A DNA stretch of 64,000 bases from Myxococcota bacterium (lineage in GTDB: Bacteria > Myxococcota_A > UBA9042 > PHBI01 > JAWLBL01), in assembly GCA_041687695.1 (NCBI GenBank), contig JAWLBL010000004.1, forward strand, positions 192,001 to 256,000, read 5' to 3'. The notes under the pieces were generated by a model, which saw nothing but the letters and a program-made list of their open reading frames with translations, did not search any database and was not told where the DNA came from. Both the position numbers and the translations under genes were made by a program. Positions 2,743 through 8,652 of the stretch are shown piece after piece (positions within the stretch are counted from its first letter, which is position 1; every line of letters begins with the position of its first letter).

Positions 2743-4764
2743 GTGGCGCGCCTCGGGGCCCTGCTGGCGCTCGCGCTGACCCTGGCGTCGCCTGCGGCGC
2801 GCGCCTTCGACTACCTCGAGCACGCCTACTTCGCCGACCGCGCCTGCTACGAGGCCCAGCGCCGCCTCGCGCCCCTCGTGACCCCCGCGCGCCCCGACGT
2901 CGTCGCCCGCTACCTCGCCCTCGCGCTCGCCTGTCCCGAGCGCTGGGACCGCCCGTACTGCGCGGACGACCTCAAGCAGGCCGAGGCCGGCCTCAACCGC
3001 CTCGAGGCCCCGCCCGCCGCCAGCGGCGACCACGCCCTCACCCTGGGCGACTTCAGCGCCCTGGTCGACCACCTCGCCTGGTTCGGCCCGGTCGGCGGCT
3101 TCCCACGCGCCCGCCAGCCGGGCCTCACCGCCGAGGTCCTGGCCCTGCTCGGCGCCCCCACCACCTCCGGCGGCCTCATCGAGGACGTCGCCGAGGAGGC
3201 CTGCGACAGCGGCGTCGCCGTCCCCTGGGACCGCGTCGAGCACGACGTCCGCAGCGCCCTCGCGGCCTCGGACGCCAGCGGCGCGCCCGTCGCCGTCCCG
3301 CCCGCGCTGCTCGCCCCCAACCGCCGCGCCAGCCCCCACGCCGGCCCCGTCGACCCCGCCGCGCTCCTGTCCTTCAACAACCCCCACTACCTCGACCTCA
3401 AGCTCCACGGCGACGACCACTTCGGCGTCCGCGCCTTCGGCGCCTGGACCGGCTACCACACCGCCGCCCGCGTCATCGCCGCCAGCCGCTGCCAGGACGT
3501 CCTCGCCGTCGACGCCGACCTGCTCGAGGACCTCGCCGACGGCCTCCCCGCCTTCGCCCGCGTCGACTTCGACGACCTCGCGCCCGCCGAACGCGCCCGC
3601 CAGGGCTGCCTCCTCCTCGCCGAGCGCGTCCGCCGGCGCCTGCTCGACTGGCGGCGCCGCGCCGAGCCCGCCCTCACCGCGCCGGCCGCCCCCTTCCTCG
3701 ACGCCTTCGCCGACGGCCCCGCCACCACCGAGGAGGCGCTGCTGCTCGAGCACGTCGTGACGGCCCTGATGGCCGTGGTCTGGGAGGGCGGAGGGCTCCA
3801 CTTCCTCCAGGACGGCCTCTCCGGCGGTCACCTGCGCACCGACCCGACCTCGCGCGCCGGCCTGGGCGAGATCCGCTACGCCCACGACACCGACGGCCAG
3901 TTCGGCCTCTCGGCCGTCCTCACCACGGCCGCCGGCCACGCGCCGTTCGTCGCCTACGGGGACGGCTTCCTGCTCGGCCGCCCCACCGGCGCGCTCGACA
4001 CCTGCGTCTGGGATCGCTTGGGCGACGCGGGTCAGCCGGACGTCACGGCCTGCCTGGTCCAGCACCAACGCGGGCTGCTGGTCGCCCTGGGGGCCGCGAG
4101 CCTGGTCGACTGGGCCCTGGGCGGCGTGCTGCAGGCGCCTCGCGCCGCCGCCGACGGCTGCTCGACGCCGACCGACGCCCCGCACGCCTTCGTTTGCCGC
4201 TTCCTGCCCCTGCGCGCCGTCGCGGCCGCGGGCTACGAACCCCAGGGCCCGCCGCCCACCGAGCTGGCCGAGGGCACCCTGCCGACCCCGCCGCCTCCCT
4301 TCGCCTACCAGTCGCTGTTGACCGTCCTGGCGGCCGACTTCGGCGGCGACGGCGTGCAGGCTGGCGCGCGCCTGGTCTTCCTGAGCGAGCTCGACGATCT
4401 GGCCAACTGGATGTCCAGCTGGCACTTCGGCCTGCTCACGACCCAGGGCGTGCGCCGCAGCGAGCTGCTGGCCGAGTTCTCCTTCATGTTCCACTGGCGC
4501 TGGGCCGCGCGCTTTCTGGTCAACGCCGGCCCCGTCCTGCACGCCGGCTGGCGCGGCTTCGGCGACGACGTGTCGACCTTCGTCGGCCTCGGCCCCAGCG
4601 TCGGCCTCACCTTCCTGCCGGAAGGCTGGACCAAGATCCCGCTCGAGGCGACCTTCAGCCTGCGCCTGCCCGTGACGCTGCTCGACAGCCGCTTCGGCGC
4701 GGCGGACGGCGTGCGCATCGAGGGCTGGTGGTTCGAGATCGGCGTCGGCCTGGCCTTCATGTGA
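2743..4764 (+). CDS. Secreted protein with a Zn-dependent phospholipase C/P1-nuclease-like domain and a C-terminal beta-strand-rich (barrel-like) domain
   Basis: Signal peptide ending ARA, then FDYLEH; HFLQDGLSGGH (HxxxDxxxxxH); HDTD; C-terminus has alternating hydrophobic strands ending FEIGVGLAFM. Confidence 0.6.
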   Translation: MARLGALLALALTLASPAARAFDYLEHAYFADRACYEAQRRLAPLVTPARPDVVARYLALALACPERWDRPYCADDLKQAEAGLNRLEAPPAASGDHALTLGDFSALVDHLAWFGPVGGFPRARQPGLTAEVLALLGAPTTSGGLIEDVAEEACDSGVAVPWDRVEHDVRSALAASDASGAPVAVPPALLAPNRRASPHAGPVDPAALLSFNNPHYLDLKLHGDDHFGVRAFGAWTGYHTAARVIAASRCQDVLAVDADLLEDLADGLPAFARVDFDDLAPAERARQGCLLLAERVRRRLLDWRRRAEPALTAPAAPFLDAFADGPATTEEALLLEHVVTALMAVVWEGGGLHFLQDGLSGGHLRTDPTSRAGLGEIRYAHDTDGQFGLSAVLTTAAGHAPFVAYGDGFLLGRPTGALDTCVWDRLGDAGQPDVTACLVQHQRGLLVALGAASLVDWALGGVLQAPRAAADGCSTPTDAPHAFVCRFLPLRAVAAAGYEPQGPPPTELAEGTLPTPPPPFAYQSLLTVLAADFGGDGVQAGARLVFLSELDDLANWMSSWHFGLLTTQGVRRSELLAEFSFMFHWRWAARFLVNAGPVLHAGWRGFGDDVSTFVGLGPSVGLTFLPEGWTKIPLEATFSLRLPVTLLDSRFGAADGVRIEGWWFEIGVGLAFM

Positions 4765-4804
4765 CCGCGGCGCTGGCCGACGCGTGACCGTGGCGCTGGC
4801 CGAC
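4761..4804 (+). repeat. Short tandem duplication (23-bp unit, ~2 copies) spanning a stop codon
   Basis: GTGACCGCGGCGCTGGCCGACGC followed by GTGACCGTGGCGCTGGCCGAC. Confidence 0.7.
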
Positions 4805-4940
4805 CGGCCAGGACGGCCAGCCAGCGCCTCGATGCACATCCCTTCGGCCGGAACGCGCCAGGGACGTCGCGGCCTCTCGGTGACCGACGCGCCAGGGACG
4901 CCGGCCGTTGCCCACGCGAGGGCCAGGTCCTCGCGTGCGC

Positions 4941-4975
4941 AAAACAAAAACCCGAACGGCCGAGGCCATCCGGGT
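4941..4975 (-). terminator. Rho-independent terminator on the minus strand
   Basis: Minus strand reads ACCCGGATGGC-CTCG-GCCGTTCGGGT then TTTTGTTTT. The 11-bp stem has two G-U pairs that would be A-C mismatches on the plus strand. Confidence 0.8.
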
Positions 4976-7197
4976 CTTTGGGGTTGACGAGCACAGCCCT
5001 GTGGGGTGTTCCCCTTCGAAGGGTCTCACGGCCTCCCAGCTGCCACGCCGATGTCACCATCGTCGCGGCCTCCTCTCATCGCGTTGGGCTCGACTTCAGA
5101 GTCTCGGGGTGCCTGCCTGGCGCCGCATGGGTTGAGCGCGCCCACCATGGCCTTGGAGCGAGCTCCGGCCTTCGTGGTCTGCAGCAGGTCACCTGGCGCC
5201 GATGAGGGCTCTCACCGTCGCCGTCCTCTCTTGTCGTTGGCCTCGCGTTCAGAGTTTGACCAGAAGCGTGTGTCCATGGCTCGTGACCTCGTCCTCACGA
5301 CCGTCACGATCCTCGCGTTCCCTTCCGTGCCGGCGCGGACGCCGACTTCCTCCATCTCTCTGACGACCCACCAGCTCGCGGAACCCGGGCTGCCGCCTCC
5401 GGCCCTCCCTGTCGGGAGCGCCGCGCCGTCGGCCAGGCCTCGAGGCGAACCTCTCGGCGTGTCCATCGGGCACGAGGCGAAGAACCAGGCGCCAGCGGAG
5501 TGCCTCGTGGCGCTCCGTGGGCGTCCGCTCGGGGGTCAGACGGCCGACGCGCGTCTCGGGTGGCGATCGACCCTCACAGCGTGAGCGCTGCGAGCGTACG
5601 ATCGAGACCCATGACATCGCGACGGGGTGGTGCGACCTAGGTCGCCTCCGCCATCGTCCGACTCGAGCGAGCTCCCGTCGGAACAGCTCCTCGCGTCCTC
5701 TCGCGCGCCTCGCAGGGGTGGGTCGGGGAGACCCCGCACCACCGTGTCCCGGTCAGACCGGGAGGCCGTGGAGACCACGTCCTCCTTGCCCTCCGCCCTC
5801 GCACCGACCAGCCGCGGAGCGGTGGTTCGATGGTCGAGCGCTCGGGCCTCGCGGACGTCTCCGTCCACGAGCGGCGTCGCCCTCCGACTTCAGCCTGCGA
5901 ACCACGCTCGGTGACCGCCAGGGCCCACCCGAAGGCGAACCGTGACGACCCGCGCGTCCCCTCGTGACCCCGCCGAAGCGGGATCCCCCATGACGCTCTC
6001 GACCGAACCGCCCGCCTCCCGGAGGAGACCCCGTCACTGCCTTGCGAGCAGGGGCGGGTGGCGACTCGAGCCTCGGACGAGCCTCGTGGGTCGATGGGAC
6101 CTGCCGACCAGAGCGCCGCCGCCGCGCCGGGACGAGTCCCGGGAGGCGATGCCGCGCTGGGCGACCGAGGAAGGACCGGCGAGCCGGGCCTTCGTGTCCG
6201 CGAACCGAAGCCATCGTGCGCTGCCTACCGAGCGTCCGAACCGTGGAGCCGTGGCGTCCGAGGGGAAACCCCCCGGCCGTTGCTCCCGCCGGATCGGCCG
6301 TCGACGAAGGCAGCCTGACGCGTGACGCATGCGAGCCGTCGATTGCTTCGGGGCCGGCGGACCGAGGTCCGCGTGGCCCCGCCGGGCCCTCGCCATCGTC
6401 CGGGTCTCCCCGGGGTCGCTGGCCAAGGCCGACGCGTGGAGCGGTCGAAGCGGCTGTCGCCGGTTCGAGCCGCGTTCCATGGGCTCGTGTGTCGCATTGA
6501 TGAGAGATGTCGGGCCGGAAAGGGTCGCTCGAATCGATCCGCTCGCGCGGACGCATCGGAGCCGGACGCCCTCCCTTGGGGTTTGGTACCCTTCGACGCT
6601 TGCGGAAGCGAGCAGCGACCCACACCGGGGTTGCCTCCCCCGGCTGAGCTGCGCCTTCAGGTTTTCTCAACCTCTTGACGCCTTGTTCCGCTCGCGACCT
6701 CTCCGGCCTTGTTTCATGCCGGTAACGCCCTTGGGCTTTGCACCTTCAGAGGGTTTCCCCCACCGGTAGCGGGCCTCGCCTCTCGACGACGCCTGCCCTT
6801 CTTGCCGTTCGAATGCCCGGATTCGACAGTAGCCAGGATACCGCTGTCCTCCGTGCCTCGACTTCAAGGATTTACGCATCCGATGGGTCCGTACCGTTCG
6901 GGCCGGTGTTACCCGGGCTCCGAAGGCCGATCCTCTCCTGGCGTTCACCTCTTCGAGGTGTTCCCCCCCTTGGCCTCGGCTTCATGTCTCCATGAAGCCT
7001 CCTCTCTTGGGCTTCGACACGACGCTGAACGGCGAACCGTCCATCGTCGTATGTGCTCTTCAAAGTTTTAAAGAACCAAGGGAGTGGCTTGCCTCTTGCG
7101 AGTGCTGCCGACCTCCATGAGGTTCGTGTCCTCGTCGGTCCGCGCGAGGCGGGCCGTGTCGGACCTCCCTTGGGCCGCGCTCCCTGGCGTCAACCCT
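4941..7197 (-). ncRNA. Candidate very large (~2.2 kb) structured non-coding RNA of unknown family
   Basis: No ORF with recognisable motifs or the regular GC3 pattern of flanking genes. Bounded by a promoter-like element and a terminator. Terminal 9-bp complementarity (7188-7196 with 4981-4989), GNRA/UUCG hairpins on the minus strand, and a repeated internal module. Confidence 0.62.
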
Positions 7198-7203
7198 GAG
7201 GCG

Positions 7204-7233
7204 ATAGTGGATCGCCCGACGGAGCTGCCGCAA
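7204..7233 (-). promoter_or_regulatory. Putative sigma70-type promoter for the candidate RNA
   Basis: Minus strand TTGCGG (7233-7228), 18 nt, CACTAT (7209-7204). Predicted start ~7197, right at the 5' arm of the terminal stem. Weak consensus match on its own. Confidence 0.4.
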
Positions 7234-7257: not shown

Positions 7258-7319
7258 TGTGGAAAACCAAGCTGTAGGGAAGTCGCGCACTTTCGCACCG
7301 TCTCCCCAAGTTGTCCACA
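7258..7319. promoter_or_regulatory. Two oppositely oriented DnaA-box-like 9-mers
   Basis: TGTGGAAAA at 7258-7266 (reverse complement TTTTCCACA fits TTWTNCACA) and TTGTCCACA at 7311-7319 (high-GC-type box). Confidence 0.45.
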
Positions 7320-7608: not shown

Positions 7609-8652
7609 ATGGACCTGCCCGGCTACCAGCTCGACGCGCTCCGCGTCCACCCCGGCCTCGTGCTCGCGCCCATGAGCGGCGTCACCGACTCGCCCTTTCG
7701 CCGCTTGGTCAAGGCGGCCAGCGGCGACGCCGTGGGCCTCGTCGTCAGCGAGTTCCTCTCGATCGAGGCGCTCACCCGCCGCGAGCTGCGCAGCATGGTC
7801 CGGCTGGCCTTCCACCCCGAGGAGCGGCCCGTCGGCATCCAGATCTTCGGCGCCGACCCGGTCAAGATGGCCGAGGCCGCCAAGATCGTCGAGGACGCCG
7901 GCGCGGATCTGGTCGACATCAACTGCGGCTGCCCGGCTCCCAAGGTCGTCAAGCGCGGCGGCGGCGCCGGCCTCCTCCGCACCCTGCCGGCGCTGGCCGA
8001 CATCCTGCGCGCCGTGGTCCCGGCGGTCTCGATCCCCGTCACCATCAAGATCCGCAACGGCTGGGACGAGCACACCATCAACGCCCACGACACCCTCGAG
8101 CTGGCGCAGGACTTCGGCGCGCGCGCGGTCGCGATCCACGGCCGCACCCGGATGCAGCTCTACCGCGGCGAGGCCGACTGGGACATCGTCGGCGCGCTCA
8201 AGCAGGCCTCGCGGCTGCCCATCATCGGCTCCGGCGACATCGCGACGCCCGCCGACGCCCGCCGGCGCCTGGCCGACACGGGCTGCGACGGCGTCATGGT
8301 CGGCCGGGGCGCCATCATGAACCCCTGGATCTTCCGCCAGGTCGCCGACGAGCTGGCCGGCCGCGCGCCCACGGTGCCGACCTGGCGCGACAAGATCGCG
8401 CTCCTCGAGCGCTACCGCCAGATGCTGACCGAGATCTACCCGCCCAAGGTCCTGCCGGGCCGGATGCGGATGATGCTCTCGCGCCTCATCAAGGGCTTCC
8501 CGGGCGCGGCCGAGGTCCGCCTGACCTGCGTCAAGATGGACGCGCCCGAGGCGATGCTGGCCACGCTGTCCGAGGCCTGCGAGCGCCTCGAGATCCTGGA
8601 CGCGCCGGCCGTCAGCGTAGACCCGCGCGCCGGCGTCGCCGAGGCGGCCTGA
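7609..8652 (+). CDS. dusB: tRNA-dihydrouridine synthase, DusB-like
   Basis: LAPMSGVTDSPFR, QIFG, DINCGCP, GGGAGLL, VTIKIR, IHGRT, GSGDI and GVMVGRGA motifs. Confidence 0.92.
   Translation: MDLPGYQLDALRVHPGLVLAPMSGVTDSPFRRLVKAASGDAVGLVVSEFLSIEALTRRELRSMVRLAFHPEERPVGIQIFGADPVKMAEAAKIVEDAGADLVDINCGCPAPKVVKRGGGAGLLRTLPALADILRAVVPAVSIPVTIKIRNGWDEHTINAHDTLELAQDFGARAVAIHGRTRMQLYRGEADWDIVGALKQASRLPIIGSGDIATPADARRRLADTGCDGVMVGRGAIMNPWIFRQVADELAGRAPTVPTWRDKIALLERYRQMLTEIYPPKVLPGRMRMMLSRLIKGFPGAAEVRLTCVKMDAPEAMLATLSEACERLEILDAPAVSVDPRAGVAEAA

What the first reader, a model, noticed from the sequence alone, without database searches (positions are those of the whole stretch)
4981..7196. The two extreme ends of the candidate RNA pair with each other
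Seen: the first nucleotides of the predicted transcript, GGGUUGACG (7196-7188), are the exact complement of CGUCAACCC (4989-4981), which lies 5 nt before the terminator stem. Known: stable RNAs such as RNase P RNA, tmRNA and rRNA precursors are closed by 5'-3' terminal helices. Inference: a 9-bp match at both independently predicted boundaries, ~2.2 kb apart, defines the mature RNA and implies one folded unit.
Basis: partly seen in the sequence, partly recalled or inferred. Interest (0 to 1): 0.8.

Follow-up and report, generated by a model that had tools for sequence, protein, structure and literature searches.

The report
Giant module-built bacterial non-coding RNA
The two matching ends close off a real, transcribed 2,200-letter RNA that codes for no protein, belongs to an apparently undescribed family from uncultured myxobacteria and a few other bacteria, and is built from ten copies of one small folded module.

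Summary
The 9-bp match is real. Alone it is chance-level: the interval holds 28 such distant 9-mer matches. It is, however, the outer part of a bulged ~19-bp closing helix that homologues keep through compensatory changes. It closes a minus-strand RNA gene (7197/6 to 4981) between a sigma70-like promoter with two DnaA-box-like sites and an intrinsic terminator. RNA-library contigs of a ~97%-identical relative from four studies cover almost exactly this interval (one spans 4982-7188); flanking genes are nearly uncovered.

The family (154 non-redundant copies, 58% mean identity) has a ~0.9-kb core of four nested domains made of ten copies of one 3x3 purine internal loop, plus GNRA loops and two T-loop-like hairpins. 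The window's copy carries a 1.3-kb hairpin expansion at a site that reaches 2.3 kb elsewhere. It occurs in 14 of 18 genomes of the order and 35 of 151 of the phylum, sporadically in three other phyla (always behind phoH2 there), and not in phages or plasmids. Rfam and ten literature searches gave nothing.

Most likely a self-folding architectural RNA; a multivalent protein sponge is the main rival. Two 3'-to-5' junctions hint at circular forms.

The parts
7311..7319 (+). DnaA-box-like 9-mer, distal (about -123 from the RNA start)
   Evidence: One of only 4 clusters of two or more such boxes in the 8-Mb genome; another cluster lies next to dnaA. The box consensus is recalled.
7258..7266 (-). 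DnaA-box-like 9-mer, proximal (about -70)
   Evidence: 15 of 26 homologous upstream regions carry a box (0.53 expected from shuffles; 14 of 4000 random genome windows).
7204..7233 (-). Predicted sigma70-type promoter (-35 at 7233-7228, -10 at 7209-7204); start about 7197
   Evidence: Weak match here (one search found none). The same position holds clear -35/-10 boxes in homologues such as L045, L031, L037. Inferred.
4981..7197 (-). Whole non-coding RNA gene, about 2,216 nt
7188..7196 (-). P1, 5' arm of the closing helix
4981..4989 (-). P1, 3' arm of the closing helix
7172..7182 (-). P2, 5' arm (continues P1 after a bulge)
4989..4999 (-). P2, 3' arm
6948..7122 (-). Domain I: module 7122-7112 : 6958-6948; inner module 7065-7055 : 7012-7002; GNRA loop 7099-7096
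   Evidence: Covariation
6742..6942 (-). Domain II: module 6942-6932 : 6752-6742; inner module 6870-6859 : 6807-6796; GNRA loop 6784-6781
   Evidence: Covariation
6588..6736 (-). Domain III (most conserved): module 6736-6726 : 6598-6588; inner module 6681-6669 : 6663-6651; T-loop-like loops 6716-6709 and 6669-6663; GNRA-type loop 6634-6631
   Evidence: (93.8% of cells paired, 32 of 39 pairs with two-sided changes, 0 of 500 shuffles as high)
5011..6581 (-). Domain IV: outer module 6581-6572 : 5020-5011, which encloses the expansion and three more modules (5254-5244 : 5083-5073; 5236-5226 : 5101-5091; 5177-5167 : 5152-5142), hairpin 5139-5120 and GNRA loop 5057-5054
   Evidence: Covariation
5262..6568 (-). 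1.3-kb lineage-specific expansion of branched hairpins, non-coding
   Evidence: Absent from most homologues (106 of 120 have 29-131 nt here). Transcribed in one contig with the core. Fold z = -3.5 against -1.1 for a coding control. 1-2-nt indels in the relative.
4941..4975 (-). Intrinsic terminator hairpin and U-tract
   Evidence: a hairpin is present at this position in the close homologues aligned.
7609..8652 (+). Neighbour, divergent: dihydrouridine synthase (Dus) gene; not a conserved neighbour
2743..4764 (+). Neighbour, convergent: 673-aa ORF with no Pfam match; not a conserved neighbour

Best explanation
SHOWN (about 0.97): a stand-alone chromosomal gene for a large non-coding RNA. P1/P2 join its ends; four nested domains radiate from a central junction; ten copies of one module recur: a C-G stem, an A.A or G.G pair, a free middle pair, a G.G pair, then a purine-pyrimidine stem. 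INFERRED: it is made from a DnaA-sensitive promoter as a stable RNA; in several lineages P1 itself, followed by a U-tract, is the terminator, so release follows closure of the whole molecule. MOST LIKELY MECHANISM (0.45): an architectural, self-folding RNA that works like GOLLD and ROOL. The repeated modules are packing or bending units that receive the conserved GNRA loops and the junction adenosines. They build a compact particle or homo-oligomer that serves as a scaffold or container, and the variable hairpin expansions of up to kilobases hang off the surface or fill the inside.
For: Covariation over 154 copies: 66 of the top 100 pairs are canonical and nest without conflict. Module statistics over ten modules: first position A.A 934 and G.G 149 of 1144, mixed A.G only 27; last position G.G 1091 of 1152; the middle position takes all 16 combinations. 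GNRA at three loops in 85 of 93, 126 of 127 and 81 of 83 copies, and 101 of 150 at a fourth. The domain III model also hits the RNA's other domains, which points to internal duplication. Transcription: 16 of 20 holder runs are on record as RNA, 9 studies; four studies' contigs match the gene's extent; 48 of 56 wholly fetched metagenome contigs begin and end at the RNA's ends. GOLLD and ROOL cages are held by A-minor contacts and have an unresolved variable linker inside the cage (PMC12286853, passages). No gene for CsrA, Ro60 or L7Ae was found in this 99%-complete genome.
Against: No loop-loop covariation was found between nine conserved loops (best score 15.8, below the 99.9th percentile of 22), whereas GOLLD and ROOL use pseudoknots and kissing loops; near-invariant loops cannot show covariation, so this is not decisive. 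Ten equal sites fit a protein-binding role just as well. No structure or oligomer data exist. In the expansion only 2 compensatory pairs were seen among the 40 listed substitutions, and 13 break predicted pairs, so its detailed fold is uncertain. The transcript evidence is from contigs of a relative; no DNA run was laid as a control, and the runs were chosen for holding this stretch.
Confidence: 0.45

Rival explanations
1. Multivalent protein sponge or scaffold (CsrB-like logic, different partner): each 3x3 module is a binding site for one protein, and the RNA titrates or arrays about ten copies. The PIN-PhoH (PhoH2) RNA helicase-nuclease is one candidate partner or processing enzyme.
For: Ten near-identical sites with a free middle pair. 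The RNA gene lies directly behind phoH2, same strand, in 8 of 8 confirmed genome loci outside the window's phylum, plus one metagenome contig. All 35 RNA-positive genomes are among the 114 of 151 with PhoH2. PhoH2 has RNA-unwinding and RNase activity (PMC4826407, passages). DnaA-box-like sites suggest regulated dosage.
Against: In the window's genome phoH2 lies on another contig, and 79 PhoH2-positive genomes show no RNA. The phoH2 linkage may be one inherited location. CsrA is not found and the GGA-like stretches are base-paired. A sponge does not need fixed four-domain geometry with GNRA and T-loops.
Confidence: 0.3
2. tRNA-elbow-binding or catalytic RNA: the two T-loop-like hairpins of domain III interdigitate, as in RNase P, T-boxes and the L1 stalk, and the RNA binds or processes tRNA-like substrates.
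For: Both loops fit the recalled UGNRA pattern in 129 of 151 and 135 of 154 copies. Domain III is the part kept by shortened copies (L254, L260). Interdigitated T-loops recognise the tRNA elbow in three RNA classes (PMC4810234, passages).
Against: No covariation between the two loops. Only 1 of 37 loci has a tRNA call nearby. The genome has an ordinary RNase P RNA. T-loops also serve plain tertiary packing (own knowledge).
Confidence: 0.12
3. Selfish or mobile RNA element (a non-autonomous retro-element or MITE whose ends are inverted repeats), possibly spreading through a circular RNA form.
For: Up to 6 copies per genome; patchy occurrence in other phyla; two 3'-to-5' junctions.
Against: End sequences differ freely while pairing is kept. 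No mobility gene among 69 ORFs. Paralogues are old: the two copy types of genus g3 group by type across species. Neighbours persist within lineages. No match in phage or plasmid collections; 0 of 14 loose viral pattern hits were homologues.
Confidence: 0.05
4. Chance inverted repeat around an unannotated protein gene or decayed DNA.
For: 9-mer inverted matches are common here (28), and several ORFs of 120-305 aa overlap the interval.
Against: Covariation throughout. 0 of 7 internal ORFs match Pfam. A near-identical relative has 1- and 2-nt indels within those frames.
Confidence: 0.01

Closest known systems
GOLLD and ROOL RNAs (large ornate RNAs; PMC12286853 and PMC5737381, passages read)
   Same: Large, multi-junction bacterial RNAs of unknown function with a variable linker and many A-minor-type elements; no known protein partner.
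   Different: No Rfam match. Chromosomal, not in prophages or tRNA islands. No pseudoknot or kissing-loop covariation found. Longer (core about 0.9 kb against 581 nt average for ROOL and above 800 nt for many GOLLD; up to more than 3 kb). Built from one ten-fold repeated internal loop.
OLE RNA (PMC12286853, passages; details recalled)
   Same: Stand-alone, chromosomal, vertically kept large non-coding RNA with its own promoter.
   Different: Different phyla, no Rfam match, no k-turn pattern in the modules, no conserved adjacent partner gene across the family.
CsrB/RsmZ protein-sponge RNAs (recalled)
   Same: One motif repeated many times in a terminator-ended transcript.
   Different: The repeats are two-stranded internal loops, not GGA hairpin loops; CsrA was not found in the genome; the RNA is 3-8 times longer with a fixed nested fold.
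RNase P RNA, T-box stem I, L1 stalk (PMC4810234, passages)
   Same: 5'-3' closing helix (RNase P) and a pair of T-loop-like sequences.
   Different: No model match; a separate RNase P RNA exists at G000:C8; contact between the two loops is not shown.

Membership tests
Any Rfam 15 family (4227 models, including GOLLD, ROOL, OLE, HEARO, introns, RNase P, tmRNA) | Covariance-model match | tested here: not met
   0 hits at gathering score in the window; only 3 chance hits outside the RNA at E<=5; 0 hits at E<=1 in 7 and in 9 homologous loci, short forms included.
GOLLD/ROOL | Location in phages or prophages | tested here: not met
   No match in 50,697 phage or 72,556 plasmid records; 0 hits in viral contigs with the strict pattern; 0 of 14 loose hits were homologues.
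GOLLD/ROOL | Near tRNA islands | tested here: not met
   1 tRNA call in 37 loci; none in the window.
GOLLD/ROOL | Pseudoknots or kissing loops supported by covariation | tested here: inconclusive
   No signal between nine loops, but these loops are nearly invariant.
GOLLD/ROOL | Protein-free homo-oligomeric cage | not testable with these tools
   Needs cryo-EM or mass photometry.
CsrB/RsmZ | GGA motifs exposed in hairpin loops | tested here: not met
   The GA of the GGA-like strands pairs by covariation; most modules lack GGA.
CsrB/RsmZ | CsrA/RsmA in the host | tested here: not met
   PF02599 not found in G000; the controls rang in 3 of 14 genomes.
K-turn arrays | 3-nt bulge followed by tandem G.A/A.G pairs (recalled); L7Ae-family binder | tested here: not met
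   The loop is a symmetric 3x3 with A.A/G.G pairs, mixed A.G in 27 of 1144; PF01248 not found.
MITE / IS element | Sequence-conserved terminal inverted repeats, target-site duplication, cognate transposase | tested here: not met
   Ends covary rather than stay constant; no duplication in the window's flanks; no mobility gene among 69 ORFs.
Self-splicing introns (group I/II) | Interrupts a host gene; conserved catalytic core | tested here: not met
   Lies between its own promoter and terminator; no model match.
Interdigitated T-loop tRNA binders | Two pentanucleotide T-loops that intermesh | tested here: inconclusive
   Two loops fit the recalled pattern; their contact cannot be shown from sequence.

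The most novel reading that the evidence does not exclude
A new class of giant bacterial RNA machine: a tandem-module RNA, grown by internal duplication of one domain, that self-assembles into a particle, tolerates kilobase-long appendages, is transcribed under DnaA control in step with the replication cycle, and is matured into a covalently closed circle. It may hold tRNA-like substrates on a paired T-loop platform, with a PIN-PhoH helicase-nuclease as its ancestral partner.
Probability: 0.15. Interest if true: 0.97.

Novelty: categorically new. Interest (0 to 1): 0.88.

Why it matters
Bacterial non-coding RNAs of this size and complexity are few, and those known turned out to be ribozymes, ribosome parts or RNA cages. 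This family has a larger core than ROOL and most GOLLD RNAs, reaches more than 3 kb, and dominates the RNA-library matches to its locus. Short members (747-913 nt; L254, L251, L043, L037) are ready-made cryo-EM targets. A DnaA-linked giant RNA would tie a non-coding RNA to replication control in predatory bacteria.

Tried and rejected
Rfam scans of the window and 16 homologous loci: nothing. tRNA and tmRNA scan: nothing. Phage, plasmid and viral collections: nothing; a looser pattern gave 14 viral hits, none homologous. The promoter scan found no site in the window; the promoter rests on homologues. K-turn, CsrA-site and local-hairpin readings of the module were rejected by the pair tables. 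Pseudoknot search between loops: no signal. Partner searches in G000: CsrA, TROVE and L7Ae not found; the vault-protein search was uninformative because no control rang; four RtcB matches exist, none adjacent. Paralogues in G000: none by blastn, profile or covariance model. The near-absence of contigs on the flanking genes cannot rank expression and counts only as a weak hint. The marginal hit L256 (E about 1e-3) was not confirmed by the profile and was dropped, as were L104 and L111 (2 of 120 metagenome loci). Look-ups of earlier scan notes by sequence and place found nothing. Literature searches found no description of the family. The library lacks most subscription papers. The M. xanthus ncRNA survey of Whitworth and Swain 2020 was seen only as a reference, and the supplements of PMC5737381 and of the TRIC-seq preprint were not read; any of these could list a member.

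Full report
OBSERVATION. The two 9-mers are exact reverse complements at the stated places, and a terminator hairpin with a U-tract follows 5 nt later on the minus strand. The match alone is not significant: the interval holds 28 exact 9-mer inverted matches over 200 nt apart. It extends over a bulge into an 11-bp second helix, and its ends coincide with the ends of homology to relatives (7195 and 4989).

THE CLOSING HELIX IS CONSERVED BY PAIRING. In 16 same-class copies anchored without structure, 131 of 144 cells pair (shuffled mean 115.5; 0 of 2000 as high), with two-sided changes at 5 of 9 pairs; two rows were mis-anchored by this blind method. More distant copies close with unrelated sequences of 7-17 bp: 23 of 24 reach 8 bp with their own ends against 20% of cross pairs, with the caveat that these ends were chosen with the helix in view. 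In copies from Ca. Eisenbacteria and its phylum the 3' arm is followed directly by a U-tract (L037, L043, L251, L252, L254), so the closing helix can itself be the terminator stem. That reading is an inference.

THE FAMILY. Blastn found it in 16 of 40 related genomes. An exact pattern gave 25 loci in the species-level genome collection, all 25 homologous by profile; their titles name Myxococcota (the window's nearest named relatives, so the window is placed there by inference), Ca. Eisenbacteria, one Gemmatimonadota and one Acidobacteriota genome. Two titles that say Pseudomonadota are loci of genomes that the tool places in the window's class. A covariance model of domain III found 14 of 18 genomes of the order and 35 of 151 of the phylum with up to 6 copies (a floor, as only 17 candidates per genome were scored). 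It also found 3 of 40 further genomes in the Eisenbacteria phylum, 0 of 40 in the Gemmatimonadota genome's phylum and one unconfirmed hit among 80 in the Acidobacteriota genome's phylum. G000 has one copy. No phage or plasmid copy was found.

IT IS TRANSCRIBED, AS FAR AS CONTIGS CAN SHOW. Of 20 runs holding the stretch, 16 are on record as RNA, from 9 studies in all. Four runs from four studies were laid. One contig covers 4982-7188 in one piece (48 substitutions, 6 gaps); the others cover 4986-7179 (with a 109-nt skip), 5018-7172, and 4970-6677 plus further pieces. The flanking genes are nearly bare, but contigs cannot rank expression and no DNA run was laid. Independently, 48 of 56 wholly fetched metagenome contigs start and stop within about 110 and 60 nt of the modelled ends, as transcript assemblies would.

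ARCHITECTURE. 154 non-redundant copies (mean identity 58%, effective number 73) were aligned to a profile and scored by a G-test with background correction. Of the top 100 pairs 66 are canonical, and the stacked ones nest into four domains under P1/P2; isolated cross-domain scores are probably shared ancestry. Domain III was re-tested on an independent MAFFT alignment of 49 diverse copies: 93.8% of cells pair, 32 of 39 pairs change on both sides, 0 of 500 shuffles reach this, and slid registers give 36-46%. Each domain opens with the same module, and six more copies lie inside, ten in all. In each, a C-G stem is followed by a 3x3 loop and a purine-pyrimidine stem. The first loop pair is A.A (934) or G.G (149) but rarely mixed (27 of 1144); the last is G.G (1091 of 1152); the middle is free. 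These non-canonical pairs are among the strongest covarying columns. The domain III model also matches the other domains of the same molecules, which points to growth by internal duplication. Conserved terminal loops are GNRA at four places and two T-loop-like sequences in domain III (the pattern is recalled). No loop-loop covariation was found.

THE EXPANSION. Between 6568 and 5262 most copies have 29-131 nt (106 of 120); 14 have 358-1312 nt, the window's being the longest of these. A further genome copy has about 2.26 kb there and spans over 3.1 kb (L261). The window's expansion folds better than shuffles (z -3.5; coding control -1.1) and is non-coding: 0 of 7 ORFs match Pfam and the relative differs by 1-2-nt indels. 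Among the 40 substitutions listed (70 more were not shown), 2 pairs are compensatory, 6 keep a pair, 17 are unpaired and 13 break a predicted pair, so its detailed fold is only partly supported.

CONTEXT AND CONTROL. Neighbours vary across the family but persist within lineages (tolB three times, a Bax1-I gene twice, uvrA twice); no mobility gene appears among 69 ORFs. All 8 confirmed genome loci outside the window's phylum, and one metagenome contig, lie directly behind a PIN-PhoH gene; in G000 that gene is elsewhere. PhoH2 is described as an RNA helicase-RNase (PMC4826407, passages). Upstream, 15 of 26 copies carry a DnaA-box-like 9-mer (consensus recalled) against 0.53 expected and none downstream. 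In G000 the pair at 7258 and 7311 is one of four such clusters in 8 Mb; another lies beside dnaA. Paralogues in genus g3 group by copy type across two species, so the duplicates are old.

POSSIBLE CIRCLES. Contig L094 has a 123-nt terminal repeat (period 974 nt) and joins the 3' arm of its closing helix to the 5' arm through 8 nt; it is the only one with such a repeat among the 118 contigs checked. Run X2 has a junction from 5018 to 7172, at the inner edge of P2, where a reverse transcriptase could jump across the helix. The junctions differ, so circularity is a lead only (about 0.2).

MECHANISM. Shown: gene boundaries, fold, repeated module, expansion site and presence in RNA libraries. Inferred: promoter, DnaA control and function. 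I favour a self-folding architectural RNA (0.45), because fixed helix geometry, GNRA loops, junction adenosines and a tolerated variable insert are what GOLLD and ROOL cages show (PMC12286853, passages). A ten-site protein sponge is close behind (0.3), then a tRNA-binding or catalytic role through the T-loop pair (0.12; PMC4810234, passages). A mobile element (0.05) or chance (0.01) fit poorly.

COMPARISON AND NOVELTY. It works, most likely, like the ornate RNAs but is a member of none: no Rfam model matches the window or 16 homologous loci, and the phage and tRNA-island context is missing. Ten literature searches found no description. I read passages of PMC5737381, PMC12990946, PMC8538405 and bioRxiv 2025.09.11.675593, none of which describes it; their supplements were not read, and subscription papers are not in the library. 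I put the chance that the family is undescribed at about 0.8. An earlier scan note reports a different repeat-built giant RNA from rumen bacteria; I did not test it, and it is an analogy only.

VERDICT. The larger result is a new family of very large, module-built bacterial RNAs. Interest 0.88.

Noticed in passing
L094 (metagenome contig, 1097 nt) and run X2 junction 5018/7172: Two different 3'-to-5' junctions suggest circular forms or reverse-transcriptase jumps across the closing helix.
   Followed up: partly
L037, L043, L251, L252, L254, L038, L053, L040, L152: The RNA gene sits directly downstream of a PIN-PhoH (PhoH2) gene in every confirmed genome copy outside the window's phylum.
   Followed up: partly
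L037 3424, L043 3421, L251, L252, L254, L096, L126: The closing helix is followed at once by a U-tract: a terminator with a loop of 750-900 nt.
   Followed up: partly
L254 and L260: Short copies lack domain I (L254, 747 nt) or match only from domain III onward (L260), so domains can be lost as units.
   Followed up: partly
L123, L113, L131, L162 (contigs of 3.5-5.3 kb) and L106, L140, L141, L263-L265: Contigs that start at the RNA's 5' end and run for kilobases, and a second expansion site inside domain II; members may exceed 5 kb.
   Followed up: no
L262 (G176:C29:1-4300): Two near-equal divergent copies 3.6 kb apart, possibly a tandem duplication with a gene between them.
   Followed up: no
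G000 C9:43500-45000, C29:23500-25000, C9:182090-184497: Other long stretches without coding-like ORFs, or poor in them, and rich in one-strand UUCG hairpins; they do not match this family and may be further large RNAs.
   Followed up: no
G000 C5:30977-31110, C11:39174-39278, C18:46027-46110: The other three clusters of DnaA-box-like sites; the last lies just downstream of dnaA and is a candidate origin region.
   Followed up: no
window 4754-4806 and 4855-4905: Short direct repeats (about 23-30 nt) and GC-rich hairpins between the convergent ORF and the RNA's terminator.
   Followed up: no
G000 C23:2336-3481, C23:116352-117653, C39:8218-9348: Several RtcB RNA-ligase genes, one apparently in two pieces.
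   Followed up: no
L035, L052: Record titles say Enterobacteriaceae or Pseudomonadota, but the loci belong to genomes placed in the window's class (G028, G320).
   Followed up: yes
window 2743-4764 (+): 673-aa ORF without any Pfam match next to an ABC1-type kinase gene (1063-2739).
   Followed up: no
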